A DNA stretch of 64,000 bases from an uncultured Chloroflexia bacterium (GTDB lineage Bacteria > Chloroflexota > Dehalococcoidia > Dehalococcoidales > RBG-16-60-22). This document shows, one piece after another, positions 12,333-61,899 of the stretch. The position numbers were made by a program, and so were the translations under genes. Below the pieces are notes generated by a model. That model was not told where the DNA came from. It ran no database searches and worked only from the letters and a program-made list of their open reading frames with translations. The DNA is taken from positions 393,891-457,890 of the forward strand of contig CAVUAO010000003.1 of assembly GCA_963739515.1 (NCBI GenBank), written 5' to 3'. The stretch's first letter is position 1, and each line of letters begins with the position of its first letter.

Positions 12333-12447
12333 TTCCCCCTTCCCCTGCGAGGGGAAGGGGGATTAAGGGGGATGGAGTCTCTAATGCTCTCTTCCCCCTC
12401 TCCTTCACCCTGCCTCCGAAGGAGAGGGGAAAACAGGGGGTGAGGTT
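12333..12447 (+). repeat. GC-rich hairpin repeat cluster (modules 2 and 1, partial)
   Basis: CCCCCTTCCCCTGCGAGGGGAAGGGGGATTAAGGGGGATGG is followed by CCCCCTCTCCTTCACCCTGCCTCCGAAGGAGAGGGG and then ..CAGGGGGTGAGGT. Confidence 0.8.
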
Positions 12448-13042
12448 TATAATTAGCTCAATATCACCAAAAATCGCTGAGGTTATCGAGGCCGGCACCA
12501 CTCAGTTCACCGCCCAGTGCTACGAGCTTTATCCTTCTAAAGAAGGGCCGCCCCTCGGCAGCCTGGTCAGGACCGGCGCTATTTACGGCATCGTCGCCCA
12601 CGCGGAGACCGCCGGCATCGAGCCGGGACGCCGTCCCATCGCCCGCGGCCGGGAAGAAGCCTCGGAGGAGGCCGTCTTCGCGTCCAGCCCTCAGCTTTCC
12701 AAGCTTTTGCGCAGCGATTTTACCGCGGCGGTCGTGGGTTTTCGGGACGACGCTAAAATTCTCCAGTACCTCCCTCCGCAGCCCGCCCGCATCCACGGCT
12801 TCGTGTACTTATGTCAACCAGATGAGGTCAAAGAATTTAGCCAAAACCTCGACTTTTTAAGTATTTTAATTAACGCCGCCCTCCCTATCCCTGCCGAGGA
12901 GCTTATCGGCGCGGTTTTACGCCAGATGGGCCTCGCTCAGGACGACCCGCGTGCTTTCCTGGTGGCGGCGGGCAAAGCGCTGGCCAATATCTTGAGCAAT
13001 GATTTTCTCCGACTTAAAAATATCCTGGGGAGGCTGCAATAA
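12440..13042 (+). CDS. Hypothetical protein, possibly HAS-barrel-like (HerA N-terminal-like) domain
   Basis: 200 aa. The GTG start lies inside the repeat tail. The N-terminal pattern ..IAEVIEAGTTQFTAQCYEL..GSLVRTGAIYGIVAHAET.. resembles the barrel at the HerA N-terminus (..GIVTTASLEKGVDVRL..GRYVTIEG..FFGMITDV). This is pattern recognition only. Confidence 0.4.
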   Translation: MRFIISSISPKIAEVIEAGTTQFTAQCYELYPSKEGPPLGSLVRTGAIYGIVAHAETAGIEPGRRPIARGREEASEEAVFASSPQLSKLLRSDFTAAVVGFRDDAKILQYLPPQPARIHGFVYLCQPDEVKEFSQNLDFLSILINAALPIPAEELIGAVLRQMGLAQDDPRAFLVAAGKALANILSNDFLRLKNILGRLQ

Positions 13043-13134
13043 AGACCTCCTTAAAGTGACAAAACCCTGTTGCGCCATGAGCCGTTTAAGTGCATTATAT
13101 AGTTGATTATTATTAGTAAAAATGATTAGAGTTT

Positions 13135-13312
13135 GGCCGACTTACCATAAATCGAAAAACGAATACTCCGGATTCGAAGCTGGACTTAACATAAATTAAA
13201 AAACGAATAACCGCGATTTTGAAGCTAACTTAACATATAACGAATAACGAATATAGCTACAAAATTTGAATAATTAGCTTCAAAACTAAAAAATTTTAAA
13301 AAACGAATCATT
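13135..13312 (-). repeat. AT-rich element made of ~45-bp units (family 'ATTCGTTTTT..AGCTTCA'), 4 units, reverse orientation
   Basis: The reverse complement reads GATTCGTTTTTTAAAATTTTTTAG.., ATTCGTTATTCGTTATATGTTAAGTTAGCTTCA.., GTTATTCGTTTTTTAATTTATGTTAAGTCCAGCTTCG.. and TATTCGTTTTTCGATTTATGGTAAGTCGGCC. The architecture matches 25549-25767 and 61676-61801. Confidence 0.8.
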
Positions 13313-13332
13313 TTTTGCTTGGGAATTAACCG

Positions 13333-14949
13333 ATGAAACCTGAAAATAGCCAGAAGCTCGGCATCGTCACCACCGCCTCGCTGGAAAAGGGCGTGGACGT
13401 CCGCCTGGACGCCCCCGTCTCGGTGGAGGACATGGTGGTCGGCCGCTACGTCACCATCGAAGGGCAGAAGCGCCGCTTCTTCGGCATGATTACCGATGTC
13501 AGCCTGAAGTTCACCGACGACCGCCTCTCCGTTTCCCCACCCGATGTCGCCGACCCCTTTATCGCCGAGGTCCTGGCCGGCACCAGCACCTTCGGCACGA
13601 TACATGTCAGCCCTCAGCTGACCATCGGCGGGGACGCCGCCTCCCTGCTGGAAGGTCCCCAGCCCGTCAAGACTATCCCCGCCCACTTCTCCACGGTCAA
13701 CCTGGCTTCGGAGCAGGACATCGAAAGCGTTTTCGGGAAAGAGGACGAGGAAAGGTTCCATATCGGCAACCCGCTGGACATGGAGATGAAGCTCTGCCTG
13801 AACCTGGAGGAGTTCGCCAAGCGCTCCAACGGCATCTTCGGCAAGAGCGGCACCGGCAAGACCTTCCTCACCCGCATCCTGCTCATCGGTATGCTGCAAA
13901 AAAGCAAAGCCGTCAACCTGATTTTCGATATGCATAACGAGTACGGCTGGCAGGGCACCAGCGAGAAAGGCCCGCCCGTCAAGGGACTCAAACAGCTGTT
14001 CCCGTCTAAGGTAGCCGTCTTTACCCTCGACGAAGAGAACTCGCGGCGCCGCGGCGTCAGCACCGACTTCGTCGTGAAAATCGGCTATGATGAAATCGAG
14101 CCGGAGGATATCGTGCTGCTGCGGCAGACCCTGAATCTTACCGACCTTGCCGTCGAAGCGAGCTATCAACTGCGCCGCCGCTTCGGCAAGACCTGGATAC
14201 AAAACACCATCGACACGGAAGACCCCGATGACGTTAAGCAGCTTCTGGAGGAAACGAAAATCCACGAGAGTACTTTACAGAGTCTCAAGCGCGGCCTGGC
14301 GACTATCCGCCGCCTGCCCTTTATCGAGCCGCATGCCCCGCTGGATGCCGTGAAAAATATCCTGGCTCACCTCGATGCCGGCACCAATGTCGTGCTGGAG
14401 TTCGGGCGTTACCGCGATATCACCGCCTATATCCTGGTCGCCAACATGCTCGCCCGCCGTATCTATAGCCAGTACCAGTCCCGCACGGAAAAGGCCATGG
14501 CGGAAGGCGTTGCCCCGCCCCATCCGCTGGTCATCACCATCGAGGAAGCCCACAAGTTCCTCAACCCCGAGGTCTCGGGACAGACCATTTTCGGCACCAT
14601 CGCCCGCGAGATGCGCAAGTACAATGTTTCGCTCCTCGTCATCGACCAGCGTCCCAGCGGCATCGATACCGAGGTGATGTCCCAGATGGGTACTAAAATT
14701 ACCTGCCTGCTCGATAACGAGCGGGATATCGATAGCGTGCTGGCGGGCGTCTCCGGCAAAAACGAGCTCAAAGCGGTATTGTCCCGACTCGCCCCCCGGC
14801 AGCAGGCGCTCATCTTCGGCCACGCTGTCCCCATGCCGGTGGCCTTCCAGCCGGTCGCTTATGACACCAAGTTCTACTCCAGCTTGACCCCCGGCGATAA
14901 AAAATCGCAAAAACAGACTGATACAGACATCGAAAAGCTCTGGGAGTAA
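13333..14949 (+). CDS. herA: HerA-family (DUF87/FtsK-like) ATPase
   Basis: 538 aa. N-terminal barrel-like region, Walker A GKSGTGKTF, ..ITIEEAHKFL.. motif, and Walker B-like SLLVIDQRPS. Confidence 0.75.
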   Translation: MKPENSQKLGIVTTASLEKGVDVRLDAPVSVEDMVVGRYVTIEGQKRRFFGMITDVSLKFTDDRLSVSPPDVADPFIAEVLAGTSTFGTIHVSPQLTIGGDAASLLEGPQPVKTIPAHFSTVNLASEQDIESVFGKEDEERFHIGNPLDMEMKLCLNLEEFAKRSNGIFGKSGTGKTFLTRILLIGMLQKSKAVNLIFDMHNEYGWQGTSEKGPPVKGLKQLFPSKVAVFTLDEENSRRRGVSTDFVVKIGYDEIEPEDIVLLRQTLNLTDLAVEASYQLRRRFGKTWIQNTIDTEDPDDVKQLLEETKIHESTLQSLKRGLATIRRLPFIEPHAPLDAVKNILAHLDAGTNVVLEFGRYRDITAYILVANMLARRIYSQYQSRTEKAMAEGVAPPHPLVITIEEAHKFLNPEVSGQTIFGTIAREMRKYNVSLLVIDQRPSGIDTEVMSQMGTKITCLLDNERDIDSVLAGVSGKNELKAVLSRLAPRQQALIFGHAVPMPVAFQPVAYDTKFYSSLTPGDKKSQKQTDTDIEKLWE

Positions 14950-14986
14950 AGGGGAGGCTGGAGATCTAGGAACCTAGGGGAAAAAT

Positions 14987-15604
14987 GTGAAAAAGCAATT
15001 TGGTTTTTTGTTTCTAGCAATTATCGCCGCAATTTTTCTTTATGGCTGTCATTATTCAAAAAACACTATTAATATTAGCGATAACAATAATTCTTCATTA
15101 CCTGCTGACTGGAAAAATGCTCCTTGGATTGAAATTGATAACCGTTTTGATACTTCGGTTTTATCGAGAGCCCAGGAACAGATTCCATTTCCTATCATAT
15201 TACCCAATTACCATCCTGAAAATGGTCAAGTAATATCTTTACCTTATATAGAGGGCCCTCTTAAGCAATTCCAAGAGGAAAACCATGTTGAAATTATTAT
15301 CAGATTTAGTATCATTCTTAGTTCTACTTCAAGTGTTGGTATTATGATTAGTGAAAGCAACTATGCTTCATCGTTGGGTGAACCAGAGCTAAATCCTGAA
15401 TTAGAGAAAATTGAAATCGTAGGTATGCCGGTAATAAAGACCAGAGATGATTGGTCTATTTCTGATGTTTATTATAGCTTTGACTCGAGAAATACTTATT
15501 ATAATCTTGAAGCACATTTTCTACCAAATAAGGAGTCTGTTAAAATAACGGTCTTTAAAATAGTCGAATCTATGATTATACAAATAAACGCACCAGCCCA
15601 GTAA
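14987..15604 (+). CDS. Hypothetical lipoprotein on an AT-rich islet
   Basis: GTG start. Signal peptide MKKQFGFLFLAIIAAIFLYGC with a lipobox-like LYGC. The gene is visibly AT-rich relative to its flanks. Confidence 0.6.
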   Translation: MKKQFGFLFLAIIAAIFLYGCHYSKNTINISDNNNSSLPADWKNAPWIEIDNRFDTSVLSRAQEQIPFPIILPNYHPENGQVISLPYIEGPLKQFQEENHVEIIIRFSIILSSTSSVGIMISESNYASSLGEPELNPELEKIEIVGMPVIKTRDDWSISDVYYSFDSRNTYYNLEAHFLPNKESVKITVFKIVESMIIQINAPAQ

Positions 15605-15618
15605 CTCCATAGGATATC

Positions 15619-15749
15619 CGAGAGGGGCTTCGCCCCTCTTAAACGCCCCCGTTTTCTTAAGGGAGTATCCTGCCAAGAGGGGTGCCAGCCCCTCTTTAAT
15701 TAAACTCCCCTTCCCTTAAACCGAAGGGAAGGGGATACAGGGGATAGGT
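15619..15749 (+). repeat. GC-rich hairpin repeat cluster (hairpin A x2 plus module 2)
   Basis: AGAGGGGCTTCGCCCCTCT, AAGAGGGGTGCCAGCCCCTCTT and CCCCTTCCCTTAAACCGAAGGGAAGGGGATACAGGGGATAGGT. The cluster lies between convergent genes. Confidence 0.8.
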
Positions 15750-15762
15750 CCCAGCTAAAAAA

Positions 15763-16008
15763 CTATCTCAGTTCTGCCAGTTTCTTTTCCAGCTCTTTGT
15801 TTCCCGGCTCTACCAGGATTGACCCGTCCGGGAAAACGATCGTCGGTACGCTCTGATACTCCTTATTAATTTTTCGGACGTATTCCAGCGCTGTTTCATC
15901 GCTCTCAATATCTATCCAGGTGTAAGGCACTTTCATCCGCTCGAAAACCTGCTTCGCCCGTACACAGTCGGGGCACCACTTGGTGCCGTATACTTTGATT
16001 TCTGCCAT
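15763..16008 (-). CDS. Glutaredoxin-like / NrdH-like small redoxin
   Basis: 81 aa, MAEIKVYGTKWCPDCVRAK.. with a CxxC active site in a thioredoxin-fold context. Confidence 0.7.
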   Translation of the reverse strand: MAEIKVYGTKWCPDCVRAKQVFERMKVPYTWIDIESDETALEYVRKINKEYQSVPTIVFPDGSILVEPGNKELEKKLAELR

Positions 16009-24588: not shown

Positions 24589-25512
24589 ATGACGAAAACA
24601 GCCTGGGTGTTCCCCGGTCAGGGCTCGCAAGCGGTGGGGATGGGACGGGACCTGTACGATAACGTCCCATCGGCAAGGGCTATCTTCGAACAGGCCGACC
24701 GGGCATTGGGATTGCCGCTCTCGAGGCTTTGCTTCGAAGGGCCGGAAGAGGAACTCCGCCAGACTATTAACGCCCAACCCGCCCTGGTGACGGCGGCTTG
24801 CGCCTGCCTGGAAGCCGCCCGAGAAATCAACGGAGACAAGCTCACCACCGCCAGATACGTCGCCGGCCACAGCCTCGGGGAGTACACGGCGCTGGCGGTC
24901 GCCGGGGTCTTTGACTTCACCACGGCCGTCCGCCTTGCCCGCGAGAGGGGACGGCTGATGCACGAAGCCGGGCAGCGACAACCGGGAGGCATGGCGGCCA
25001 TCATCGGGCTGGAGGAAACGAAACTGGCCGAGGTCTGCCGTAAATCCGGTACCGTCATGGCCAACATCAACTGCCCGGGACAAATAGTCATCAGCGGGGC
25101 TTTGGAGAACCTCAACAGGGCCATGGAGCTGGCTAAAGCCGCCGGGGCAAGCCGGGCCATTCCGCTACAGGTAAGCGGGGCGTTCCACTCGCCGCTGATG
25201 AAGTCGGTCGTGGAAGGCATGTCGAAAATCATAAAGTCGATGCCTTTTAAAGACCCCACCATTCCCGTCGTCGCCAACATGACGGCCGAGCCGCTGACTA
25301 AAGCCGAGGCCGTGAAGACGGAGCTGATCAACCAGTTGACGAACCCCGTGCAGTGGCAGCGCAGTATAGAGTACATGGTGGAGCAGGGCGTGGATACCTT
25401 TATCGAGATTGGGCCGGGCAAGGTGCTGACCGGGCTTATCAGGCGCATCAACAAGGACGTGACGACCCGAAACATCAGCGACCTGGCGACGGCCAAGAGC
25501 CTGGGGCAATAA
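24589..25512 (+). CDS. fabD: Malonyl-CoA:ACP transacylase
   Basis: ..FPGQGSQ.. and the active-site GHSLGEY motif; 307 aa. Confidence 0.9.
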   Translation: MTKTAWVFPGQGSQAVGMGRDLYDNVPSARAIFEQADRALGLPLSRLCFEGPEEELRQTINAQPALVTAACACLEAAREINGDKLTTARYVAGHSLGEYTALAVAGVFDFTTAVRLARERGRLMHEAGQRQPGGMAAIIGLEETKLAEVCRKSGTVMANINCPGQIVISGALENLNRAMELAKAAGASRAIPLQVSGAFHSPLMKSVVEGMSKIIKSMPFKDPTIPVVANMTAEPLTKAEAVKTELINQLTNPVQWQRSIEYMVEQGVDTFIEIGPGKVLTGLIRRINKDVTTRNISDLATAKSLGQ

Positions 25513-25548
25513 ACCGGTTATCCGGGGCGCCGTCCCGACCCCAAAAAC

Positions 25549-25767
25549 CATTCGTTATTCGTTTTTTTAATTTTTTTTGATGTTTTCCAAAGCTAATCAG
25601 CTACGTTATTCGTTTTTAGATTATGTAAATTCTAGCTTCATTTTCCAAATGATTCGTTTTTCGTTTTATGGAAAGTTAGCTTCATTTCTTCGGTTATTCG
25701 TTTTTCGATTTATGGAAAGCCCAGCTTCAATTACAAAGTATTCGTTTTTAGAGTTATGTTAAGCAGG
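25549..25767 (+). repeat. AT-rich element made of ~45-bp units (family 'ATTCGTTTTT..AGCTTCA'), 5 units
   Basis: Unit consensus is GTTATTCGTTTTT(A/C)GATTTATG(G/T)AAA-N3-4-(C/T)AGCTTCA-N8-10. The first unit has a T-run variant and the last ends ..TTATGTTAAGCAGG. The only ORF here (25577-25762) is an artefact of the repeat. Confidence 0.85.
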
Positions 25768-25778
25768 TGTAAGGGATA

Positions 25779-25838
25779 GTGTTTGGTTACTAGTTACTAG
25801 TTGCTAGTGACTAGTTATTAGTATAAAGTGTTTGGTTG
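25779..25838. repeat. Heptamer-spaced TAG array (ACTAGTT)x5 flanked by an 11-bp direct repeat
   Basis: AGTGTTTGGTT - ACTAGTT ACTAGTT GCTAGTG ACTAGTT ATTAGTA TAA - AGTGTTTGGTT. Confidence 0.8.
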
Positions 25839-25864
25839 AGAAAGAGAATGGGATTTTGTCCCGT

Positions 25865-25949
25865 TGACCCGCCTACGCTGAAGCTTCGGTGGGCAAGCCT
25901 TACCCCCTGACCCCTGCCTACGCAAAGGCTACAGCAGGCAAGCCTCCCC
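25865..25949 (+). repeat. Tandem pair of ~42-bp GC-rich units
   Basis: TGACCCGCCTACGCTGAAGCTTCGGTGGGCAAGCCTTACCCCC followed by TGACCCCTGCCTACGCAAAGGCTACAGCAGGCAAGCCTCCCC. Confidence 0.75.
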
Positions 25950-26004
25950 AAACCTTAGATTTGCGAAATAGTTTTATCTTTTGTTTGGAGAGGTGGGAGA
26001 AAGG

Positions 26005-26088
26005 AAGAGGGGTCGTGACCCTTCAGGGTGAACCTTCAGGATGAACCCCTCTTAGACGCCCTGGATTTGAGGGGGCTACGCCCCTCTC
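26005..26088 (+). repeat. GC-rich hairpin A-type repeats
   Basis: AAGAGGGGT..(loop with CCCTTCAGGG / CCTTCAGG)..ACCCCTCTTAGACGCC, then GAGGGGGCTACGCCCCTCTC. The ACCCCTCTTAGACGCC string recurs at 60263-60279. Confidence 0.75.
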
Positions 26089-26137
26089 TTGCAGGAACTA
26101 TTACCTACCGGTAATTTAACTGATGAATCGCTCATAG

Positions 26138-27057
26138 TTAACGTTTTTGTATGGGAATATAGATATCCATTTGCTTGATACCGTTATTGTGCGAATAATG
26201 GTCTCTTTCATCATAGTACTCGAAATCATTCCGCTTTTCATCGAATTTGTACCCTGACGCCGGCAGCCAGCTATCAAAGATGTTTTTCCAGGTATCTCTT
26301 ACCGTTTGAATGTGTTTCGAGGCTTCAGTGAGAGGAGTGGTGAATTTGGCGTATAATCCGCCCGCCGTTTTCATCTTGTACATATCGGGTTCTATCTTAG
26401 CAAGGTCTTCAGGATTATCCACGCCTACGCCGAGCATATACGTAAATTCGCTGGTTAACGGATTGATATCGAAGCATACAGTAATCTCGCAATGCCTGGA
26501 TTTGTTGAAAACGTTATGAAGTCGGGTGAGGGGTTCCCATAATCCATGTTGATTGTTTCCCAATATAACGGGATATCGTGGGTAAATCTTACATTGGGCA
26601 TTTTATGCCGGCTGGTAAAGCCGACGACGGTAAGAGGTTTCATTTCTACAATTTCCGGATACATAATTTTTCCTCCTGATATAATACTTATAAGTTCCGT
26701 AAGTTCCATTCTCGTCGGCCGACTGCAAATGGCATGAATCCGGTAGATAGACGGGGGATACCCGAAGCATTTTTTAAACGCCTTGGTAAAACCGGCATGC
26801 GTTTCAAAACCATATTTCACCGCAACATCGATGATTTTTTCTCCGCAGCTAACATCATATAACGCGTATTGCAGTTTACGACGGGTAACATAAGCCATGA
26901 GAGTTATTCTCGTTACCCTGGAAAATATGCGATTAAAATGAAATGTTGAATAACCGCATTCTTTTGCCAGTTCTTGAGGGCGTTATTCCTTCTGTGATAC
27001 GGTTATCAATAATGTCCAGGACATTTTGTATGATATGATTATCTATCCAAGTCTTCA
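26138..27057 (-). pseudogene. AraC-family regulator with GyrI-like effector domain, on an AT-rich islet, two frame breaks (~26540 and ~26977)
   Basis: GTG 27057 gives VKTWIDNHIIQNVLDIIDNRITEGITP. Skipping 1 nt continues QELAKECGYSTFHFNRIFSRVTRITLMAYVTRRKLQYA.. (two AraC HTH units). The second break joins ..DIPLYWETINMDYG to ..WEPLTRLHNVF.. of the GyrI-like domain (track ORFs 26455-26898 and 26138-26563). Confidence 0.75.
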
Positions 27058-27156
27058 CCTTGTAAGCTAACAGTAACTAGATTATACCAAGTCTTAAAAT
27101 CAATTTGCTTATCCTGGAGTGCTGTTTTAATGGGAAAAAATATCACTTCACATGGC

Positions 27157-29247: not shown

Positions 29248-29288
29248 GTCGTGCTATAATTGAGTGAATTAATACAAAAGGATTAAAA

Positions 29289-29771
29289 ATGAAACGACAA
29301 AGTATTAATGAAGATTTAGATAAAAGTAGAATATTGAGTCAACTTAAAAAATACGCAAGAGAAAACAATCTTTCAAATAAACAACTTGCAGAGAGTCTGG
29401 GGGAACCCTACAACAGTCTTAAAAAATGGGAATTCTTTACAACTGCGAAACATGCTCGAAAACCTTCAAAAAAGCATTTAAACAAAATAGACGAATTCCT
29501 AAATAATAAGAATATACCTGAAAATTACGAACGAATTAACACTGCTAGGCATAGAGCAGAAAAGATAAAGTACATTCTACTACTCCTCGAAGATGAATTA
29601 AGATGGTTTCGAGACAACGAACCAAGAATGAGAGATGAATTTCGTAAAGAACTCGACGCTTCTGATATAGGTTACATTTCCAGTTTAATGACTATGTTGA
29701 CTGAAGAGGAGAAATTCAAAAGATGGTTAGCTCTTACCACCTCTCGCTTCCAAGCGTTTAAAAAGGGGTAG
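29289..29771 (+). CDS. Small HTH (XRE-like) protein, AT-rich islet gene 1
   Basis: 160 aa. ..NNLSNKQLAESLGEPYNSLKKWE.. is a helix-turn-helix pattern. The C-terminal half is predicted helical. The first 52 nt contain 13 G+C. Confidence 0.55.
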   Translation: MKRQSINEDLDKSRILSQLKKYARENNLSNKQLAESLGEPYNSLKKWEFFTTAKHARKPSKKHLNKIDEFLNNKNIPENYERINTARHRAEKIKYILLLLEDELRWFRDNEPRMRDEFRKELDASDIGYISSLMTMLTEEEKFKRWLALTTSRFQAFKKG

Positions 29772-29776
29772 TTGAA

Positions 29777-31303
29777 ATGACAAAAAAGAAAATCCGCGGT
29801 AATCTCGGGGTTTTACTTACTTACCTTGGCAGATTATACGGTACTCCGGCAAATGCTATTAAAGAATACACAAGCAATGCTTTAGATGAATGGATTAAAG
29901 CTAAAGAAAAAGGAACGATAGTTGGCCCATGTGAAGTTGTGTATAGCCTAGAAAAAAGTAAAATCAGCATTGAATATAATTCGCCGGGTATGGATGAAAA
30001 AGAATTTCAAGATGCTCTTAACAGAGTGGCGGATTCAATTAAACGTGAATTAACTATACCACAAATTGGAGAATTGGGGATAGGGATTTTCGCATTTAAT
30101 CAGGTTGGAGGTACTTGCACATTTCTCAGTAAAAAATATAAGGGAGCGCCTACAATAAAGGTAACTCTAACAAGTAATTCCGACGAGTACGAAATAGAGA
30201 TTGCAAAAAAAATGGAGTCTCTAATTAATCCAGGCATGAAAATTATTATAACTCGTTTACATCACGACCCGACAAAACTTAGAGGATCTTTATCTCCACA
30301 AGTACTACAACGCTTTTTTGCAGAAAAATTTGATTCGTACCTTAGAAAAAATAGCCTGATACTTAAACTCAATTCTCTTGATAAAATACTTAACGTACAA
30401 CCAATAGAGATTAGTTTACCCATTATTGGACAGGCTTTTAATGAAGTGCACCTTTCTGATGAATGGCTCAAAATTTTCCGATGTCAATTCTGGTTCGACT
30501 CATCGCAAAAAAGCCACGTCTCAATCCGCCATACGGGCGTTTCAATAATAGAAGACTTAAGTACTTATCCAGCTTATGGGCTAGAAAAAAGTATATATGC
30601 AAGTGGTTTCTTAAGAGGTTATATTGATGCCGATTTTCTTAAACCTCTTCCGTCTCGAACAAGCTTTGAAGAAAACCAAGATTGGGTTCAATTTCTAGTA
30701 GAGCTTGATAAAATACGACCGTCTCTTGAAGCAGAAATCGACGAATTACGCAGGATAGAACAAGAAAAAAGACTTACAGAAGTACAAAAAAAGGCTATCG
30801 AAATCGCCCGTGAGATTCTTGAGCAAGAGCAATTCCGAGACCTGGAATTGTTAAAAGGATTAAGAAAGAAACGAGGTCCGACTGTTCATGTAGGAGTCTC
30901 ACACAAACAGGGTAGGCAAACTGGCGAGCGCTCAAAAAAATCTGGCGAGGCTGGTCACTTGGGTGGCTTTCGAATTGGGTATCTTGAGGAAGCATTTGAA
31001 GATGGGCCATCCCGACATAGTGAATTTGTTGCTGGAACAGTGCGGGTAAATAAACTCAATCCCGATTTCGTTCGAGAGAGTTCTGAGCAATCAAAACTTG
31101 TATACGGCGCGCTTATGGTTGGAAAAGAGGCAATAGTATATGGTGATAAGTCACATGCAGCAGACTATTTCCTAGAAAAATTACTATCATATTTGTTTCA
31201 AGTAAAGGTTAAAACAGGTGAGAACCTTAGTATAAATCTTAAAAAAGGAAAAATTACACCTCTTAAGATAGGTATACATAAACAAACTACTCTTAATCTT
31301 TAA
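29777..31303 (+). CDS. GHKL-type (HATPase_c_3 / MORC-like) ATPase with uncharacterised C-terminal two-thirds, AT-rich islet gene 2
   Basis: 508 aa with an N-box EYTSNALDEW (ExxxNAxD), a G1-like YNSPGMD and a G2 IGELGIGIFAF. The later segment RKKRGPTVHVGVSHKQGRQTGERSKKSGE is basic. It starts 5 nt after gene 1. Confidence 0.55.
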   Translation: MTKKKIRGNLGVLLTYLGRLYGTPANAIKEYTSNALDEWIKAKEKGTIVGPCEVVYSLEKSKISIEYNSPGMDEKEFQDALNRVADSIKRELTIPQIGELGIGIFAFNQVGGTCTFLSKKYKGAPTIKVTLTSNSDEYEIEIAKKMESLINPGMKIIITRLHHDPTKLRGSLSPQVLQRFFAEKFDSYLRKNSLILKLNSLDKILNVQPIEISLPIIGQAFNEVHLSDEWLKIFRCQFWFDSSQKSHVSIRHTGVSIIEDLSTYPAYGLEKSIYASGFLRGYIDADFLKPLPSRTSFEENQDWVQFLVELDKIRPSLEAEIDELRRIEQEKRLTEVQKKAIEIAREILEQEQFRDLELLKGLRKKRGPTVHVGVSHKQGRQTGERSKKSGEAGHLGGFRIGYLEEAFEDGPSRHSEFVAGTVRVNKLNPDFVRESSEQSKLVYGALMVGKEAIVYGDKSHAADYFLEKLLSYLFQVKVKTGENLSINLKKGKITPLKIGIHKQTTLNL

Positions 31304-31373
31304 ATCACCTGCTGACAAAATAAATACAAATTGATACCAATTAAATGTTTATTGTTTTGGATTTTTTAAACCT

Positions 31374-31481
31374 ATGAAGGATTTCAAGGGCAAGGTGGCG
31401 GTGGTGACGGGCGGGGAAGAAGTGACAGGTAAGACAAGGATGGTACGAGGGCGGCGGGTGGGAAAAGATAAAAAGGAATAA
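31374..31481 (+). pseudogene. Orphan 5' fragment of an SDR paralogue
   Basis: ATGAAGGATTTCAAGGGCAAGGTGGCGGTGGTGACGGGCGGGG matches the start of the SDR gene at 31515-31557 at 36/43 positions (last 22 nt identical). After the MKDFKGKVAVVTGG codons it diverges and stops. Confidence 0.7.
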
Positions 31482-31514
31482 AAAAAGAAGTTACGGGGGG
31501 AAAAGAGGGGATAC

Positions 31515-32371
31515 ATGAAAGACTTTACCGGAAAAGTGGCGGTGGTGACGGGCGGGGCGAGCGGGATAGGGTGGGGAATAGCGGAGAGGTGCGCCGCCGA
31601 AGGGATGAAGGTGGTCATCGCGGACATCGAAGAGGGAGCCCTGAAGCAGGCGGAAAAGACGCTGAAAGTCGGAGGGGCGGACGTACTAGCGGTAAAGACC
31701 GACGTTTCAAAGATAGTCGAAATAGAAAAGCTGGCGCAAAAGACCCTCGAGGCTTACGGCGGGGTACACCTGCTCTTTAATAACGCCGGGGTGAACACGG
31801 ATATTTCCTTACGCAAGCCGGTCTGGGAAAACACGTCCGGCGACTGGGAATGGATGATAGGGGTCAACCTGTGGGGGGTCATTAATGGGGTCAAGGTCTT
31901 TCTGCCGATAATGATGCGGCAAAACACGGCATGCCACATCGTCAATACGGCGTCCATGGCGGCCTGCTGCTGGAGCCGCAGCTCGTGATTTACGCCGTCA
32001 CTAAAGCCGGCATCATCGCCCTTTCCGAAGGACTTTATATCCAGCTCAAGGAAAGAAATTCTCCCATCGGCGTGAGCGTCCTTTGCCCGGCGTTCGTCAG
32101 CTCACGGATTTTCGAGGCGGAAAGAAACCGGCCGGGCAACCTCAAAAACCCGCCCGAACCTCCTAAAGCTCGCCCGCAAGCCGCGCTGGTCAGCCAATTC
32201 AACAAGGTCGTCCCGACGCTGACGCCGGAACAGAGCGCCGATATCGTGTTCAAGGCGATAGGGGAGGGGACCTTCTATATCTTTACCGACCCGCTGGTGC
32301 AGGAGCTCTTCAGACAGAGGGCGGAAAACATATTGAAGGGTAAAAATCCAGAGAGGCCGCACGTAACATAG
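31515..32371 (+). pseudogene. Short-chain dehydrogenase/reductase (SDR); 1-nt deletion near 31957-31962
   Basis: TGGASGIG cofactor motif. Track ORFs 31515-31988 and 31931-32371 join as ..HIVNTASMA|GLLLEPQLVIYAVTKAGI.. (YxxxK catalytic motif in the second part). Confidence 0.85.
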
Positions 32372-32403
32372 AAAATACACCTGGAGATATAGTAGTACGG
32401 CGA

Positions 32404-32856
32404 TTGCGTAAAAAAGACCTGAATGCCGTCTACGAGCTCATCCAGAAGACAATCGACGTCTCGTACAACAGAGTCTATCCCCCAGAAGCCATCAAATTTT
32501 TTAAAGCGTTTCATAGCCAGGCAACCATTCTGAAAGACGCCGCCGCAGGGTACACGGTCGTGGCGGAACGGAACGGCGAGATACTGGGGACGAGCACGCT
32601 GATAGATTGCCATATTCAAAGGACTTTCGTCAGTCCGGCCTGCCAGCGGCAGGGCGTCGGCGGGATGCTGGCACAGGAACTCGAGAAGAAAGCGTCCCGG
32701 CGGAAACCCGATTATCTTACCCTGGAAGCTTCACTCGTGTCACGGCAATTCTGGGAAGCGCGCGGGTTCACCGTCCAGGAAGAGACTTTCATACCGGTAA
32801 AGAACGGGCAAAAACTGGTCTATTATAAAATGAGCAAGAAGATAAATCGAGCCTGA
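32404..32856 (+). CDS. GNAT family N-acetyltransferase
   Basis: 150 aa with the ..QRQGVGGMLAQELE.. acetyl-CoA binding motif (Q/RxxGxG/A). Confidence 0.75.
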   Translation: MRKKDLNAVYELIQKTIDVSYNRVYPPEAIKFFKAFHSQATILKDAAAGYTVVAERNGEILGTSTLIDCHIQRTFVSPACQRQGVGGMLAQELEKKASRRKPDYLTLEASLVSRQFWEARGFTVQEETFIPVKNGQKLVYYKMSKKINRA

Positions 32857-32905
32857 GTATCGGCGGGGGTAGCGGGAAACGCCGAATTAAGCTATAGTAT
32901 TACTG

Positions 32906-60329: not shown

Positions 60330-61646
60330 ATGAATTACCAGCAGTCCCTGGAATATCTCCTAAAGTTCGCCGACTACGAGCGGGTTTCACGGGCGGGAAT
60401 CGTCTGGGACCTGAAGCGCATCGAGAGGCTGCTGGCCAGGCTGGGTGACCCGCAAAACCAGGCGAGGTCGGTGCACGTGGCGGGGACAAAGGGAAAAGGG
60501 AGCACGTCGGCGATGATAGCCTCGGTGCTGAAAAGCGCGGGATATAAGGTCGGGCTTTATACGTCACCACACCTGTTGTCGTATACCGAACGGATACGGG
60601 TGAACGGCCAGCCCATCGCCGAGGCGGACTGGGCCAAGCTGACCGAAATCATCCAGCCGCACGTCGAGGCGGAGAACCGCACAGGCGACCTGGGGCAACT
60701 GACGACCTTCGAGATATTCACGGCGATGGCCTTTCTCCACTTCCGGCAGGTGAAAGCGGACTGGCAAGTGCTCGAGGTGGGGCTGGGGGGGAGGCTCGAC
60801 GCGACGAACGTCGTAAAACCGCAGGTGTGCGTCATCACGTCCATCAGCTACGATCACATGGACGTGCTCGGGGATACGTTAGCCAAGATAGCCGGGGAGA
60901 AGGCGGGGATTATAAAGAGCGGGGCGGACGTCGTGAGCGCGCCGCAGTTCCCGGAGGCTTTAGAAGTCATCGAGAGAGTCTGCCGGGAGAAAGGCGTCCG
61001 CCTGATAAAGGTCGGGGAGGACGTCACGTGGGAAGCGGGCGAGTTCGACGTTGAGGGACAGTATTTCCGCGTGAAGGGTCGGAAAGGAGAATACGACCTG
61101 TGGATACCCCTGCTCGGGGAGCACCAGCTCGAGAACGCCTCGAACGCGGTCGCGGCTGTCGAGCTCATAACCGAAAGGGGCGCCGTCATCAAACCGGAGG
61201 CCATCGTCGAAGGGCTGGGGTCGGTCGACTGGCCGGGACGTCTGCAGGTGCTCGGGAAGGAGCCGTGGGTGGTCGTCGACGGGGCGCATAACGCCTACTC
61301 GATACAAAAGCTCGGGGAGGCGCTGGAGCGGTATTTCCGGTTCGAGAAGCTGACGCTGATACTCGGGTTCGGGAACGACAAGGACGTGGCCGGGATGGCG
61401 CGGGAAGCGGCAGAGATAACGGGGTACATCATCCTCGTGGCGTCCAAGCACCCCAAGGCGATAAAGCCGGAGGCGCTAAAGGCGGAGTTCCAGAAGCACG
61501 GGGTGACGCCGCGGGTGGTGGACTCGGTGAAGGAGGCGGTGAAGCTGGCGCTGGAGGGGGCGGGGGACAACGACCTGGTGTGCGCGGCGGGGAGCATCTT
61601 TGTGATTGCCGAGGTGCTGGAGTACTTCGGGCAAACGAGTAGTTAG
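60330..61646 (+). CDS. folC: Folylpolyglutamate synthase / dihydrofolate synthase
   Basis: 438 aa with the Mur-ligase P-loop VAGTKGKGST and ..ITSISYDHMDVLG.. Confidence 0.88.
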   Translation: MNYQQSLEYLLKFADYERVSRAGIVWDLKRIERLLARLGDPQNQARSVHVAGTKGKGSTSAMIASVLKSAGYKVGLYTSPHLLSYTERIRVNGQPIAEADWAKLTEIIQPHVEAENRTGDLGQLTTFEIFTAMAFLHFRQVKADWQVLEVGLGGRLDATNVVKPQVCVITSISYDHMDVLGDTLAKIAGEKAGIIKSGADVVSAPQFPEALEVIERVCREKGVRLIKVGEDVTWEAGEFDVEGQYFRVKGRKGEYDLWIPLLGEHQLENASNAVAAVELITERGAVIKPEAIVEGLGSVDWPGRLQVLGKEPWVVVDGAHNAYSIQKLGEALERYFRFEKLTLILGFGNDKDVAGMAREAAEITGYIILVASKHPKAIKPEALKAEFQKHGVTPRVVDSVKEAVKLALEGAGDNDLVCAAGSIFVIAEVLEYFGQTSS

Positions 61647-61667
61647 TAATTAGTAGTTAGTAATTAG
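61640..61667. repeat. Heptamer-spaced TAG array (14-bp unit TAGTTAGTAATTAG x2)
   Basis: TAGTTAG TAATTAG TAGTTAG TAATTAG. It begins within the last codons of folC and includes its TAG stop. Confidence 0.7.
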
Positions 61668-61675
61668 GAATTTTA

Positions 61676-61801
61676 ATATTCGTTTTTGAAGATTTTTTTT
61701 GGTGTTTCTCACGATGAAATAGCTTCAGTATTCGTTTTTAGATTATGTAAAACCCAGCTTCACAACCGGGGTATTCGTTATTCGTTTTATGTTAAGCCGG
61801 G
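61676..61801 (+). repeat. AT-rich element made of ~45-bp units (family 'ATTCGTTTTT..AGCTTCA'), 3 units
   Basis: ATATTCGTTTTTGAAGATTTTTTTTGG..ATAGCTTCA, then GTATTCGTTTTTAGATTATGTAAAACCCAGCTTCA, then TATTCGTTATTCGTTTTATGTTAAGCCGGG. Confidence 0.8.
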
Positions 61802-61836
61802 AAGAAAGAAGGGGAAAAGGGGCGGGGGGTATTCCA

Positions 61837-61864
61837 TTGACAATCAACTATTAAAATATATAAT
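61837..61864 (+). promoter_or_regulatory. Near-consensus sigma70 promoter at the left edge of the terminal AT-rich islet
   Basis: TTGACA (61837-61842), 16-nt spacer, TATAAT (61859-61864), ~35 nt upstream of ATG 61900. Confidence 0.55.
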
Positions 61865-61899
61865 TAATATAGTTATGTAAATAATTAAAGAGAAGATCA

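What the first reader, a model, noticed from the sequence alone, without database searches (positions are those of the whole stretch)
29250..31373. AT-rich two-gene islet: HTH protein plus GHKL-type ATPase, a candidate uncharacterised conflict/defence module
G+C drops abruptly across this interval (13 G+C in the first 52 nt of gene 1, against ~60 % in the flanks). Two genes lie 5 nt apart. The first is a 160-aa protein with an XRE-like HTH. The second is a 508-aa protein with Bergerat-fold motifs at its N-terminus (EYTSNALDEW, YNSPGMD, GELGIGIFAF). About 330 aa that I cannot assign follow, including a basic stretch (RKKRGPTVHVGVSHKQGRQTGERSKKSGE). There is no integrase, methylase or nuclease partner. 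MORC/HATPase_c_3-type ATPases recur in prokaryotic conflict systems, but I know of no named system made of HTH plus GHKL alone. The right border abuts an orphan SDR gene fragment, which is consistent with insertion or recombination.
Basis: partly seen in the sequence, partly recalled or inferred. Interest (0 to 1): 0.7.

Follow-up and report, generated by a model that had tools for sequence, protein, structure and literature searches.

The report
HTH protein plus Hsp90-like GHKL module
This is a real, strongly conserved and uncharacterised two-gene cassette found from Chloroflexota to archaea: a DNA-binding helix-turn-helix protein plus an Hsp90/MORC-like "ATPase" whose adenine-contacting residues have been replaced; a defence role is plausible but only weakly supported.

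Summary
Two co-oriented genes, 29289-29771 (160 aa) and 29777-31303 (508 aa), lie 5 nt apart in a G+C trough (0.37 against 0.54 for the window).

- **Gene 2** is a GHKL protein. It passes Pfam HATPase_c_3, and its model matches Hsp90/TRAP1 N and middle domains.
- **Gene 1** has an XRE-type HTH plus a novel, highly conserved C-terminal helical domain.
- **Pairing** is deep. The gene-1 family sits directly upstream of the ATPase in 32 of 68 loci, including relatives at about 24% identity and an archaeon. The two proteins co-diverge (r = 0.94). Thirty loci carry a solo ATPase.
- **Nucleotide pocket.** The window's clade has lost both canonical adenine contacts (motif II Asp to Tyr67, motif IV Thr to Met154). 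It keeps the N-box and G2 box.
- **History.** The pair is not a recent insertion. A syntenic relative carries it under strong purifying selection, yet GC3 stays at about 0.3 against 0.75 in the flanks.
- **Context.** Neither protein hits PADLOC. No plasmid or phage record carries the ATPase. Neighbours are mostly housekeeping genes, with occasional integrase, toxin-antitoxin or restriction-modification (RM) genes.

The best reading is a mobile, DNA-directed conflict-type module of an undescribed GHKL family. The function is untested.

The parts
29255..29260 (+). TATAAT, a candidate -10 element about 30 nt upstream of gene 1. The cassette appears to carry its own promoter.
   Evidence: Read directly from the sequence. 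A similar gcTATAAT/TACAAT element lies upstream of gene-1 homologues at different insertion sites (L002, L005, L060, L010). The consensus scan did not call it, so it is tentative.
29278..29282 (+). Shine-Dalgarno-like AAGGA, 6 nt before the ATG of gene 1.
   Evidence: Read directly from the sequence.
29289..29771 (+). Gene 1: a 160-aa partner protein (XRE-type HTH plus a family-specific C-terminal domain).
   Evidence: ORF. 127 homologous clusters. Directly upstream of the GHKL gene in 32 of 68 loci and in the distant relatives sampled. dN/dS about 0.09 against the syntenic relative.
29331..29507 (+). Gene 1 residues about 15-73: Cro/XRE-type helix-turn-helix domain.
   Evidence: HTH_3 E = 5.6e-4, 20.3 bits against a cut-off of 23. 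Some homologues carry a precomputed PF01381 hit. phrog_4779 transcriptional regulator, E = 1.2e-4. Foldseek matches SinR, C.BclI, HipB and CapH HTH domains (rmsd about 3 A over about 60 residues, target-normalised TM 0.5-0.63, E 0.2-1).
29541..29759 (+). Gene 1 residues about 85-157: the most conserved part of the protein. It is an all-helical domain with no known relative and is proposed to dock onto the GHKL protein.
   Evidence: Invariant L97, L100, E101, L104, W106, F107, R108, R115, R119, D126, G128, Y129, S131, S132, L133, M136, F143, R145, W146. Helices 78-159 in the model. No Pfam or PDB match. Conserved down to the archaeal and canonical-motif relatives.
29777..31303 (+). Gene 2: a 508-aa Hsp90-like GHKL protein.
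   Evidence: ORF. HATPase_c_3 29.1 bits, above the cut-off of 25. More than 300 homologous clusters. 763 rep50 clusters with E <= 1e-3. AlphaFold pLDDT 75. 84% amino-acid identity and the lowest dN (0.10) of six genes compared with the syntenic relative.
29777..30271 (+). Residues 1-165: Bergerat-fold (GHKL) domain. The N-box (E30, N34, D37) and G2 box (G98, G101, G103) are intact. Motif II is Y67-N-S-P-G-M and motif IV is G153-M154.
   Evidence: Profile against PDB: HtpG N domain E = 6.5e-8, TRAP1 E = 1.6e-6. Column counts over 168 family members. Profile-profile alignment to canonical relatives puts Y67 on the motif II Asp.
30284..30676 (+). Residues about 170-300: alpha/beta middle domain, equivalent to the Hsp90 M (transducer) domain.
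   Evidence: Foldseek alignments of 370-550 columns to Hsp90/TRAP1 N+M structures, E about 3e-14, probability 1.0. pLDDT 85-93. Invariant R251, H252, R294 and near-invariant R169.
30677..30820 (+). Residues 301-348: two long helices (301-332 and 335-348), a possible dimerisation or arm element.
   Evidence: DSSP on the model, helices 301-332 and 335-348. Conserved in the family.
30860..30973 (+). Residues 362-399: disordered, basic linker (RKKRGPTVHVGVSHKQGRQTGERSKKSGE). In a sister architecture of about 590 aa, an insert of about 95 residues sits here.
   Evidence: pLDDT below 50 for 362-399. Alignment A1.
30974..31216 (+). Residues 400-480: family-specific C-terminal domain (beta-beta-alpha followed by helices). 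Motif F..G...HS.F..G.V..N.L[NH]PDY ... Y...IGKE.
   Evidence: Model strands 401-405, 415-418, 421-425 and helices 429-433, 437-456, 462-480, pLDDT 70-84. Conserved in distant relatives as IN..HPDY. No PDB or Pfam match.
31374..31416 (+). A border feature, not part of the module: a 43-nt duplicate of the 5' end of the SDR gene that starts at 31515.
   Evidence: Direct repeat D2, 84% identity. It lies inside the segment that differs from the syntenic relative.

Best explanation
The interval holds a self-contained, horizontally spread two-gene operon of an undescribed family.

Gene 1 is a small DNA-binding protein. It has an XRE-type HTH at the N-terminus. I infer that its very conserved C-terminal helical domain is the surface that binds the product of gene 2.

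Gene 2 is a dimer-type GHKL 'clamp' built like the N and middle domains of Hsp90. It continues into long helices, a basic disordered linker (replaced or joined by an AT-hook-like RGRPRK tail in many relatives) and a family-specific C-terminal domain.

I think the two proteins act together on DNA. The HTH protein provides sequence or operator recognition and probably represses its own operon. The GHKL protein closes on or compacts DNA, or gates an activity of its C-terminal domain. The module would then serve in genetic conflict: defence against, or silencing or exclusion of, foreign DNA, in the manner proposed for MORC/paraMORC ATPases of restriction-modification loci.

In the window's clade both adenine-contacting residues are replaced (motif II Asp to Tyr, motif IV Thr to Met/Ile), while the Mg/phosphate-binding residues stay invariant. 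The protein probably does not use ATP in the canonical way. It may bind another ligand or act as a nucleotide-independent clamp.

Shown: the fold, the gene pairing, co-evolution, purifying selection, foreign base composition and the altered pocket residues. Inferred: physical interaction, DNA as the substrate, and the conflict role.
For: - **Fold.** HATPase_c_3 above the cut-off. HtpG/TRAP1 by profile. Foldseek E about 3e-14 to Hsp90/TRAP1 N+M.
- **Pairing.** A gene-1 homologue lies immediately upstream, often with overlapping stop and start codons, in 32 of 68 loci. The same holds for an archaeal relative at 24% identity (L068, E = 4e-33) and for three of three distant relatives with canonical motifs (E = 3e-23, 5e-12, 2e-7).
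- **Co-evolution.** The pairwise-identity matrices of the two proteins correlate at r = 0.94 over 24 loci.
- **Selection.** The ATPase is 84% identical to the syntenic relative's and has the lowest dN of six neighbouring genes. Gene 1 has dN/dS of about 0.09.
- **Foreign, mobile character.**
  - GC3 is 0.27-0.30 in the pair against 0.75-0.81 in the flanks.
  - Paired loci are mostly lower in G+C than their flanks, by up to 0.25.
  - The phyletic spread is patchy: Chloroflexota, Clostridia, Actinomycetes, Armatimonadota, Ignavibacteria, candidate phyla radiation (CPR) bacteria, Synergistota and Methanosarcinales.
  - Insertion sites differ between genomes and lie between housekeeping genes.
- **Conflict context in some loci.**
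  - PLD-SNF2 helicase, MmeI/Eco57I methylase and GmrSD in Acetomicrobium.
  - An integrase fragment.
  - A methylase plus a nuclease-like gene after a distant relative.
  - Phage_integrase, PemK, PIN and Eco57I, plus type IIG RM and MADS-model hits, among neighbours.
  - GHKL domains of distant relatives hit the PADLOC models REase_II, TmtA and MzaB.
- **DNA link.** HTH partner, basic linker and RGRPRK tails.
- **Pocket change.** Y67 in 161 of 168 members and M/I/L154 in 162 of 168. The outgroup has D in 50 of 51 and T/S in 50 of 51.
Against: - No recognisable effector (nuclease, NADase, pore or similar) was found. The C-terminal domain has no match, and its first His is not conserved in the outgroup consensus (RS).
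- Neither protein hits PADLOC.
- Most neighbours are housekeeping genes, and I could not compute a formal defence-island enrichment.
- No copy of the ATPase occurs in phage, plasmid or IMG/VR collections.
- Thirty loci have a solo ATPase with host-like G+C, and 11 Dehalococcoidia genomes carry it at a syntenic position. This looks like a stable cellular gene rather than a fast-turnover defence gene.
- In the window's lineage the pair has been kept at one locus across deep divergence.
- Which residue replaces the adenine-binding Asp depends on the alignment. One profile alignment puts [D/E]66, not Y67, on it.
- I could not model an interaction between the two proteins.
Confidence: 0.4

Rival explanations
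1. Toxin-antitoxin-like addiction module. The XRE-HTH protein is the antitoxin and autorepressor. The GHKL protein is a growth-arresting toxin, for example by clamping or compacting the chromosome. The cassette persists because losing it is costly.
For: The layout is classic: a small HTH gene first, then the larger gene 5 nt downstream or overlapping. It is a stand-alone two-gene cassette at varied sites between housekeeping genes. G+C is foreign. Phyletic distribution is patchy. The HTH fold resembles HipB and RM controller proteins. AT-rich, rare-codon composition would keep expression of a toxic product low.
Against: A 508-aa multidomain 'toxin' under very strong purifying selection is unusual. 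Solo ATPase genes exist stably in 30 loci without any antitoxin, which is hard to reconcile with a toxin. No known toxin domain was detected.
Confidence: 0.18
2. Regulatory pair. The GHKL protein is a signal-responsive modulator (kinase, partner-switch or chaperone-like) of the HTH transcription factor, which controls host or neighbouring genes. This would be analogous to the CapK-CapS or anti-sigma kinase logic.
For: GHKL-type regulators paired with a DNA-binding repressor are documented upstream of immune operons (CapK/CapS, PMC13373217). The window's clade keeps the Mg/phosphate residues but has changed the base-contacting ones, as expected for a sensor of another ligand. In some distant relatives, further genes follow in the same orientation.
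Against: [quoted passage not shown] Here the GHKL has an Hsp90-type middle domain plus about 200 further residues, and the partner shows no STAS signal. In the window and in L076 the pair has no adjacent operon to regulate. No operator-like sequence is conserved upstream.
Confidence: 0.15
3. Domesticated nucleoid-associated or chromatin-organising protein. The GHKL protein would be a bacterial MORC/Hsp90-like DNA compactor with a housekeeping role, and the HTH protein would simply be its local repressor.
For: Solo homologues have host-like G+C, and 11 Dehalococcoidia genomes carry them at a syntenic position. Conservation is very strong. There are basic and AT-hook-like segments. The pair is retained at one locus between two diverged genomes.
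Against: The family is rare (77 rep50 clusters at E <= 1e-30 among 1.84 billion) and patchy. The paired form has markedly foreign composition. Insertion sites vary.
Confidence: 0.15
4. A divergent HtpG/Hsp90 paralogue working as a protein chaperone, with a cognate transcription factor.
For: The nearest solved structures and NCBIfam models are Hsp90/HtpG.
Against: It scores 23.7 bits on the HSP90-family model, whose cut-off is 455. Profile matches to solved Hsp90 structures are confined to the N domain, and the C-terminal domain has no PDB or Pfam match. The adenine contacts that Hsp90 needs for ATP binding are replaced. It carries DNA-type appendages and an HTH partner.
Confidence: 0.04

Closest known systems
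Hsp90 / HtpG / TRAP1 (GHKL N domain plus middle domain)
   Same: These are the best structural and sequence matches among solved structures. Foldseek gives E about 3e-14 with 370-550 aligned columns. The profile gives E = 6.5e-8 to the HtpG N domain. The N-box and G2 box are conserved.
   Different: Sequence identity is only about 12-18%, and the protein is far below the HSP90-family model cut-off. The C-terminal domain is different and has no PDB or Pfam match. The motif II Asp and motif IV Thr are replaced. It is encoded with an HTH partner and carries basic, DNA-type segments.
Prokaryotic MORC / paraMORC GHKL+S5 ATPases of restriction-modification loci (Iyer, Abhiman and Aravind 2008, PMC2292703)
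   Same: Same Pfam family (HATPase_c_3). It has a GHKL domain, then an alpha/beta second domain, then family-specific C-terminal extensions. Distribution is patchy, suggesting lateral transfer. It is occasionally linked to methylases, helicases and nucleases.
   Different: That paper describes paraMORCs with intact ATP-binding motifs, mainly inside RM operons with SF2 helicases. Here the typical unit is just HTH plus GHKL, RM linkage is the exception, and the window's clade has altered adenine contacts. I could not compare directly with named paraMORC1-5 sequences.
GHKL components of named defence systems: Tiamat TmtA, Mza MzaB, GHKL-type type II REases, Shedu VcSduA
   Same: GHKL domains of the distant canonical relatives hit the PADLOC models REase_II (19 of 51), TmtA (15 of 51) and MzaB (10 of 51) over about 100 N-terminal residues. 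VcSduA shows that a GHKL domain can gate a C-terminal effector in defence (PMC12137116).
   Different: The hits are weak (E 1e-5 to 1e-9) and cover the GHKL domain only. The window's own proteins hit no PADLOC model. No nuclease or other known effector domain is present.
CapK-CapS regulators of immune operons (Chambers et al. 2026, PMC13373217)
   Same: A GHKL-superfamily protein is encoded next to a small DNA-binding repressor as a two-gene unit that can stand next to defence genes.
   Different: [quoted passage not shown] Here the GHKL is Hsp90-like with middle and C-terminal domains, and the partner is an XRE HTH with a novel helical domain.
Phage RIIA proteins
   Same: They are among the best fold matches in the viral structure library (E about 1e-10 to 1e-11), as GHKL plus second-domain proteins that act in phage-host conflict.
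   Different: This is fold-level resemblance only (13-17% identity). RIIA proteins are longer (about 620-1,050 aa in these hits) and are phage-encoded. No homologue of the window's protein was found in phage collections.

Membership tests
GHKL (Bergerat-fold) superfamily | Overall fold or profile match of the nucleotide-binding domain | tested here: met
   PF13589 29.1 bits, above the cut-off of 25. HtpG/TRAP1 N domains at E = 6.5e-8 and 1.6e-6. Foldseek probability 1.0.
GHKL (Bergerat-fold) superfamily | Motif I (N-box) E-x-x-x-N-x-x-D: general base and Mg2+ ligand | tested here: met
   E30, N34 and D37 are present in all 167 sequences that are not gapped at those columns, of 168 aligned.
GHKL (Bergerat-fold) superfamily | Motif II (G1 box) D-x-G-x-G, whose Asp contacts adenine N6 | tested here: not met
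   The window has E66-Y67-N-S-P-G71-M. Y67 occurs in 161 of 168 members. hhalign to canonical relatives (D in 50 of 51) and the HtpG alignment put Y67 on the Asp. One alternative alignment puts [D/E]66 there, and that residue is only 89% acidic.
GHKL (Bergerat-fold) superfamily | Motif III (G2 box) G-x-x-G-x-G of the ATP lid | tested here: met
   G98 168 of 168, G101 166 of 168, G103 168 of 168.
GHKL (Bergerat-fold) superfamily | Motif IV G-T, whose Thr contacts adenine | tested here: not met
   G153 is invariant, but position 154 is M/I/L in 162 of 168 and T in 2. The outgroup has T/S in 50 of 51.
GHKL (Bergerat-fold) superfamily | ATP binding and hydrolysis | not testable with these tools
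   This needs biochemistry. The residue changes argue against canonical ATP binding.
Hsp90 / HtpG family | Full-length match to family models (N, M and C dimerisation domains) | tested here: not met
   NF010683 gives 23.7 bits against a cut-off of 455, and PRK05218 gives 12.6 against 371. Profile hits to solved Hsp90 structures cover the N domain only. Foldseek alignments extend through the N and M domains at TM about 0.45.
MORC / paraMORC GHKL+S5 ATPases | GHKL domain followed by a second alpha/beta (S5/transducer-type) domain | tested here: inconclusive
   A well-modelled alpha/beta domain (residues about 170-300, pLDDT 85-93) aligns with the Hsp90 M domain. I did not test it specifically against S5-fold domains of MORC or MutL, and none appeared in the top 50 PDB hits.
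MORC / paraMORC GHKL+S5 ATPases | Conserved operon linkage to RM components (SF2 helicase, methylase, endonuclease) | tested here: not met
   Linkage is seen in a minority of loci. Most paired loci, including the window, have none.
Known anti-phage defence systems (PADLOC-DB v2.0.0) | HMM match of either protein to a catalogued system component | tested here: not met
   No family matched at E <= 1 for either protein.
CapK-CapS | Anti-sigma-factor-kinase-like GHKL plus a STAS-domain repressor | tested here: not met
   Gene 1 shows an HTH_3/XRE signal and no STAS hit. Gene 2 is Hsp90-like with a middle domain. Family definition taken from PMC13373217.
XRE / Cro-C1 HTH family (gene 1, N-terminus) | Profile and fold match to the HTH_3 domain | tested here: inconclusive
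   20.3 bits against a cut-off of 23. Several homologues carry a precomputed PF01381 hit. Foldseek matches SinR, C.BclI and HipB with rmsd about 3 A and target-normalised TM 0.5-0.63, but E is 0.2-1.
Type II toxin-antitoxin modules | Toxicity of the downstream product, neutralised by the upstream HTH protein | not testable with these tools
   Only the gene layout fits. The 30 solo ATPase loci argue against it.

The most novel reading that the evidence does not exclude
This would be a previously undescribed two-component system that spreads laterally through bacteria and archaea. An XRE-type DNA binder, through a novel C-terminal domain, would recruit an Hsp90/MORC-like molecular clamp. In the window's clade the nucleotide pocket has been re-tooled (Asp to Tyr, Thr to Met, with the Mg/phosphate residues kept), so that the clamp responds to a ligand other than ATP. 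The system would silence or exclude foreign DNA by a mechanism unlike any catalogued defence system.
Probability: 0.2. Interest if true: 0.8.

Novelty: new variant of a known kind. Interest (0 to 1): 0.6.

Why it matters
GHKL/MORC-type ATPases are known from comparative genomics to sit in prokaryotic conflict systems, and they gave rise to eukaryotic MORC gene silencers. Very few bacterial examples have been studied.

This module is minimal, with two genes and no obvious effector. Its pairing is conserved down to about 24% identity and into archaea. A large clade has swapped both adenine-contacting residues while keeping the catalytic and phosphate-binding residues.

If it is a defence or silencing system, it would show how a GHKL clamp can work with only a DNA-binding adaptor and possibly without ATP. 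If it is not, it still defines a new Hsp90-like family and a new partner domain.

It also offers a natural experiment in how an ATPase pocket is re-purposed. Homologues in Acetomicrobium sp. assemblies could supply genes for heterologous tests.

Tried and rejected
1. **Known defence system.** PADLOC found nothing for either protein. PHROGs gave only generic HTH hits and one borderline hit of unknown function.
2. **CapK/CapS.** I read the paper's outline and abstract and rejected this assignment because the domains differ. Ambrosia and Shedu-GHKL were rejected for the same reason.
3. **Phage or plasmid origin.** No relative of the ATPase was found in IMG/VR, GenBank phages or PLSDB plasmids.
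4. **Recent insertion bounded by repeats.** No convincing terminal repeats were found. The only long inverted pair is 75% complementary and partly inside gene 1. No tRNA gene is present in the window. Synteny with L003 shows that the pair is ancestral at this locus.
5. **C-terminal domain as an HNH or beta-beta-alpha-Me nuclease.** The topology and an H...N...[NH]PD pattern suggested this. The first His is not conserved in the outgroup consensus, and there is no profile hit. The question is left open and nothing is claimed.
6. **Conserved operator upstream of gene 1.** Upstream regions from 19 loci share only a -10-like TATAAT and no common palindrome.
7. **A hidden partner in the 'solo' loci.** All-against-all comparison of upstream ORFs and a six-frame maximum-sensitivity HMM search found none.
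8. **Structure of the complex.** Not possible. The tool folds single chains only, and model coordinates are not exposed. I therefore could not inspect the pocket geometry directly.


Full report
**1. The observation**

The interval contains two co-oriented ORFs, 29289-29771 (160 aa) and 29777-31303 (508 aa). Five nucleotides separate the stop codon from the next ATG. G+C of the pair is 0.367. For 2-kb windows the 64-kb window has a mean of 0.542 (sd 0.049), so the dip is about 3.6 sd. Only the stretch at 61.5-64 kb is lower. The short SDR-like fragment at the right border is a 43-nt, 84%-identical copy of the start of the SDR gene 141 nt further on.

**2. Gene 2 is a GHKL protein of Hsp90-like build**

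- It passes Pfam's threshold for HATPase_c_3 (29.1 bits against 25).
- A profile of 33 homologues hits the N domains of HtpG (E = 6.5e-8) and TRAP1.
- An AlphaFold model built on the same alignment has mean pLDDT 75, with 85-95 over most of residues 30-250.
- The best PDB matches of this model are all Hsp90, TRAP1 or HtpG structures. E is about 3e-14, probability is 1.0, and 370-550 columns align, covering the N and middle domains.
- After the middle domain come two long helices (301-348), a disordered basic linker (362-399) and a compact C-terminal domain (400-480). That domain has a beta-beta-alpha start and the motif HS.F..G.V..N.L[NH]PDY...Y...IGKE. It has no match in the PDB or Pfam.
- Many relatives end in an AT-hook-like RGRPRK tail. 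A sister architecture of about 590 aa carries an extra insert of about 95 residues in the linker.
- The protein is not an HtpG orthologue. It scores 23.7 bits on the HSP90-family model, whose cut-off is 455.

**3. Gene 1 is an HTH protein with a novel conserved domain**

- HTH_3 scores just below threshold (20.3 against 23 bits).
- Several homologues carry a precomputed PF01381 hit, and some sources call them XRE-family regulators.
- The model's N-terminal 60 residues superpose on SinR, RM controller proteins, HipB and CapH (rmsd about 3 A).
- The most conserved part is the C-terminal all-helical domain of about 75 residues (LLLLEDELRWFRD..R..FR..LD.SDIGYISSLL.M...E.KF.RW). It has no known relative.
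- Longer family members (about 220 aa) insert an extra segment between the two parts.

**4. The two genes form a deeply conserved unit**

- A scan of one genome per species returned 64 loci. They come from Chloroflexota/Dehalococcoidia, Clostridia, Actinomycetes, Acidobacteriota, Gemmatimonadales, Armatimonadota, Ignavibacteria, Zixibacteria, Aminicenantes, CPR bacteria and one Methanosarcinales archaeon.
- Counting the four loci of the window's own protein and its closest relative, a gene-1 homologue lies immediately upstream of the ATPase gene in 32 of 68 loci. Stop and start codons often overlap.
- These include the archaeal locus, where the ATPase is only 24% identical (gene-1 HMM E = 4e-33).
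- I sampled three more distant relatives from an exhaustive search of 1.84 billion representative proteins. All three have the partner directly upstream (E = 3e-23, 5e-12 and 2e-7).
- Over 24 paired loci, the pairwise-identity matrices of the two proteins correlate at r = 0.94. The genes therefore travel and diverge together.
- The other 36 loci have no gene-1 relative anywhere, even in a six-frame maximum-sensitivity search. Thirty of them have enough upstream sequence to count as true solo ATPases. These solos are mainly in Acidobacteriota and in one Dehalococcoidia clade, where 11 genomes carry the gene at a syntenic position.

**5. A remodelled nucleotide pocket**

Across 168 members of the window's clade, the following are essentially invariant: N-box E30, N34 and D37, and G2-box G98, G101 and G103. 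Two other motifs have changed.

| Motif | Window's clade (168 sequences) | Distant relatives (51 sequences) |
|---|---|---|
| II (D-x-G-x-G) | Y67 at the Asp position in 161; local motif [D/E]66-Y67-(N)-x-[P/Y]-G-M | D in 50 |
| IV (G-T) | G153 invariant; position 154 is M/I/L in 162, T in 2 | T/S in 50 |

The distant full-length relatives align over 461 columns (hhalign probability 100, E = 1.6e-65). That alignment, like the HtpG alignment, puts Y67 on the Asp. The archaeal paired homologue also has the canonical DNGVGM.

From established GHKL biochemistry, which I did not test here, the Asp and Thr are the residues that contact adenine. Both have been replaced in a derived clade that includes the window's protein, while the Mg/phosphate machinery is kept. 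One alternative profile alignment places [D/E]66 on the Asp. That position is acidic in only 89% of members. I could not inspect model coordinates, so the exact geometry is unresolved. Calling the protein an 'ATPase' is therefore not justified without biochemistry.

**6. History at this locus**

A metagenomic relative (L002/L003) carries the pair at the same place, after the same MTA-phosphorylase-like gene and the same 344-aa gene.

| Gene | Amino-acid identity | dN | pS | GC3 in window | GC3 in relative |
|---|---|---|---|---|---|
| ATPase | 84% | 0.10 (lowest of six genes) | 0.76 | 0.27 | 0.36 |
| Gene 1 | 71% | 0.18 (dN/dS about 0.09) | 0.69 | 0.30 | 0.36 |
| Four flanking genes | 74-82% | 0.12-0.17 | 0.49-0.63 | 0.75-0.81 | 0.69-0.75 |

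Nucleotide identity is 74% across the 344-aa gene plus the pair, and 72-79% across the flanking genes.

- Both genes are under strong purifying selection.
- Synonymous differences in the pair are saturated and exceed those of the flanks.
- The pair is therefore old at this locus, or has been replaced there by allelic exchange. It has not drifted towards host composition.
- The DNA that differs between the two genomes lies to the right of the pair (31288-32886). The window has a frameshifted SDR plus a GNAT gene there. The relative has DUF6485, a methyltransferase and an NTPase.
- The SDR fragment therefore marks turnover of the neighbouring segment, not insertion of the pair.
- Across other genomes, paired loci are usually lower in G+C than their flanks, by up to 0.25. 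Solo loci match their flanks.

**7. Context**

- In the window the neighbours are FabD, a split AraC/GyrI-like gene, the phosphorylase, the 344-aa gene, the split SDR, GNATs and kinase-like genes. None is a mobility or defence gene.
- In Acetomicrobium the pair lies beside a PLD-SNF2 helicase, a 1,301-aa MmeI/Eco57I-type methylase and GmrSD.
- One locus abuts an integrase fragment. One lies about 2.4 kb from a prophage-like element. One is wedged between argininosuccinate lyase and ribulose-phosphate epimerase.
- One distant relative is followed by a DNA methylase and a PD-(D/E)xK-like protein.
- Among 136 neighbouring ORFs from 19 paired loci, most Pfam hits are housekeeping families. The exceptions are Phage_integrase (4), PemK (2), PIN (2), Eco57I (2) and AAA_21 (2), plus PADLOC hits to MADS components, a type IIG RM enzyme and a type I methylase.
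- Neither window protein hits PADLOC. No homologue of the ATPase occurs in IMG/VR, GenBank phages or PLSDB.
- GHKL domains of the distant relatives weakly hit the PADLOC models REase_II, TmtA and MzaB.
- Viral fold matches are giant-virus Hsp90s and phage RIIA proteins.
- Overall, the mobile character of the paired form is well supported. Defence-island residence is not.

**8. Interpretation**

The best-supported reading is a two-gene, laterally spread module in which an XRE-type DNA binder works with an Hsp90/MORC-like clamp on DNA. The likely setting is genetic conflict, as Iyer et al. (PMC2292703) proposed for MORC and paraMORC ATPases. I put this at about 0.4.

The rivals are a toxin-antitoxin-like addiction module (0.18), a regulator-plus-modulator pair in the manner of CapK/CapS (0.15), a domesticated nucleoid protein (0.15) and a chaperone (0.04).

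Against the conflict reading stand three things: no recognisable effector, the stable solo forms, and the mostly housekeeping neighbourhoods.

Three things remain unexplained. Why has the pair stayed AT-rich across deep divergence? What does the remodelled pocket bind? Why does half of the family dispense with the partner?

**9. Novelty and score**

The literature and database checks I could run found no description of this pair. It is best filed as a new variant within the known theme of GHKL (MORC, paraMORC, Hsp90-like) proteins of prokaryotic conflict systems. It brings a new partner domain, a new C-terminal domain and an unusual loss of the adenine contacts.

Interest is 0.6. The feature is real, conserved and testable, but its function is unproven and the general theme is known.

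Noticed in passing
window 31515-32371: The SDR gene right of the pair is split into two overlapping ORFs (31515-31988 and 31931-32371). They match adh_short profile positions 1-139 and 143-191. This is a frameshifted pseudogene or an assembly error. A 43-nt copy of its 5' end sits 141 nt upstream (31374-31416), followed by a GA-rich spacer.
   Followed up: partly
window 25500-27150: This is a second AT-rich islet (G+C 0.35-0.46). On the minus strand it holds two overlapping ORFs: an AraC-type HTH_18 fragment (26455-26898) and a GyrI-like/Cass2 effector-binding domain (26138-26563). Together they look like one frameshifted AraC/GyrI regulator. The syntenic relative L003 has a ParE toxin pair at about this position instead.
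   Followed up: partly
window 61551-63983: This is the most AT-rich stretch of the window (G+C about 0.33). It holds a 433-aa ORF with no Pfam hit (61900-63201), overlapped at its end by a 261-aa radical SAM / DUF5131-like ORF (63198-63983). It may be another acquired two-gene islet.
   Followed up: partly
window 12440-15604: A HerA-like ATPase (HAS-barrel plus DUF87, 13333-14949) is flanked by two ORFs of about 200 aa with no Pfam hit. The downstream one lies in an AT-rich patch (14801-15800). This could be a HerA-based defence or repair module.
   Followed up: no
window 29289-31303 versus L003 3047-5063: The pair keeps GC3 of 0.27-0.36 in two genomes whose flanking genes have GC3 of 0.69-0.81. 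This holds even though synonymous sites between the two copies are saturated (pS 0.69-0.76, higher than the flanks at 0.49-0.63). Either AT-richness is selected or the alleles were exchanged at the locus.
   Followed up: partly
L081 1288-8024 (distant relative P0325): Here the HTH + GHKL pair is the tail of a run of same-strand genes with no Pfam hits: 291 aa (with a SAM-methyltransferase-like LADLGSGDG motif), 131, 429 and 476 aa, then the pair, then 163 aa. This may be a larger operon built around the canonical-motif version of the module.
   Followed up: no
Alignment A1, columns about 375-470 (for example P0111, P0029, P0053): A sister architecture of about 590 aa carries an insert of about 95 residues (PPNGFDFVPSSIR...VTVHVSF.GK...) in place of the basic linker. 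It looks like a small beta-sandwich domain. The Acetomicrobium homologue is of this type.
   Followed up: no
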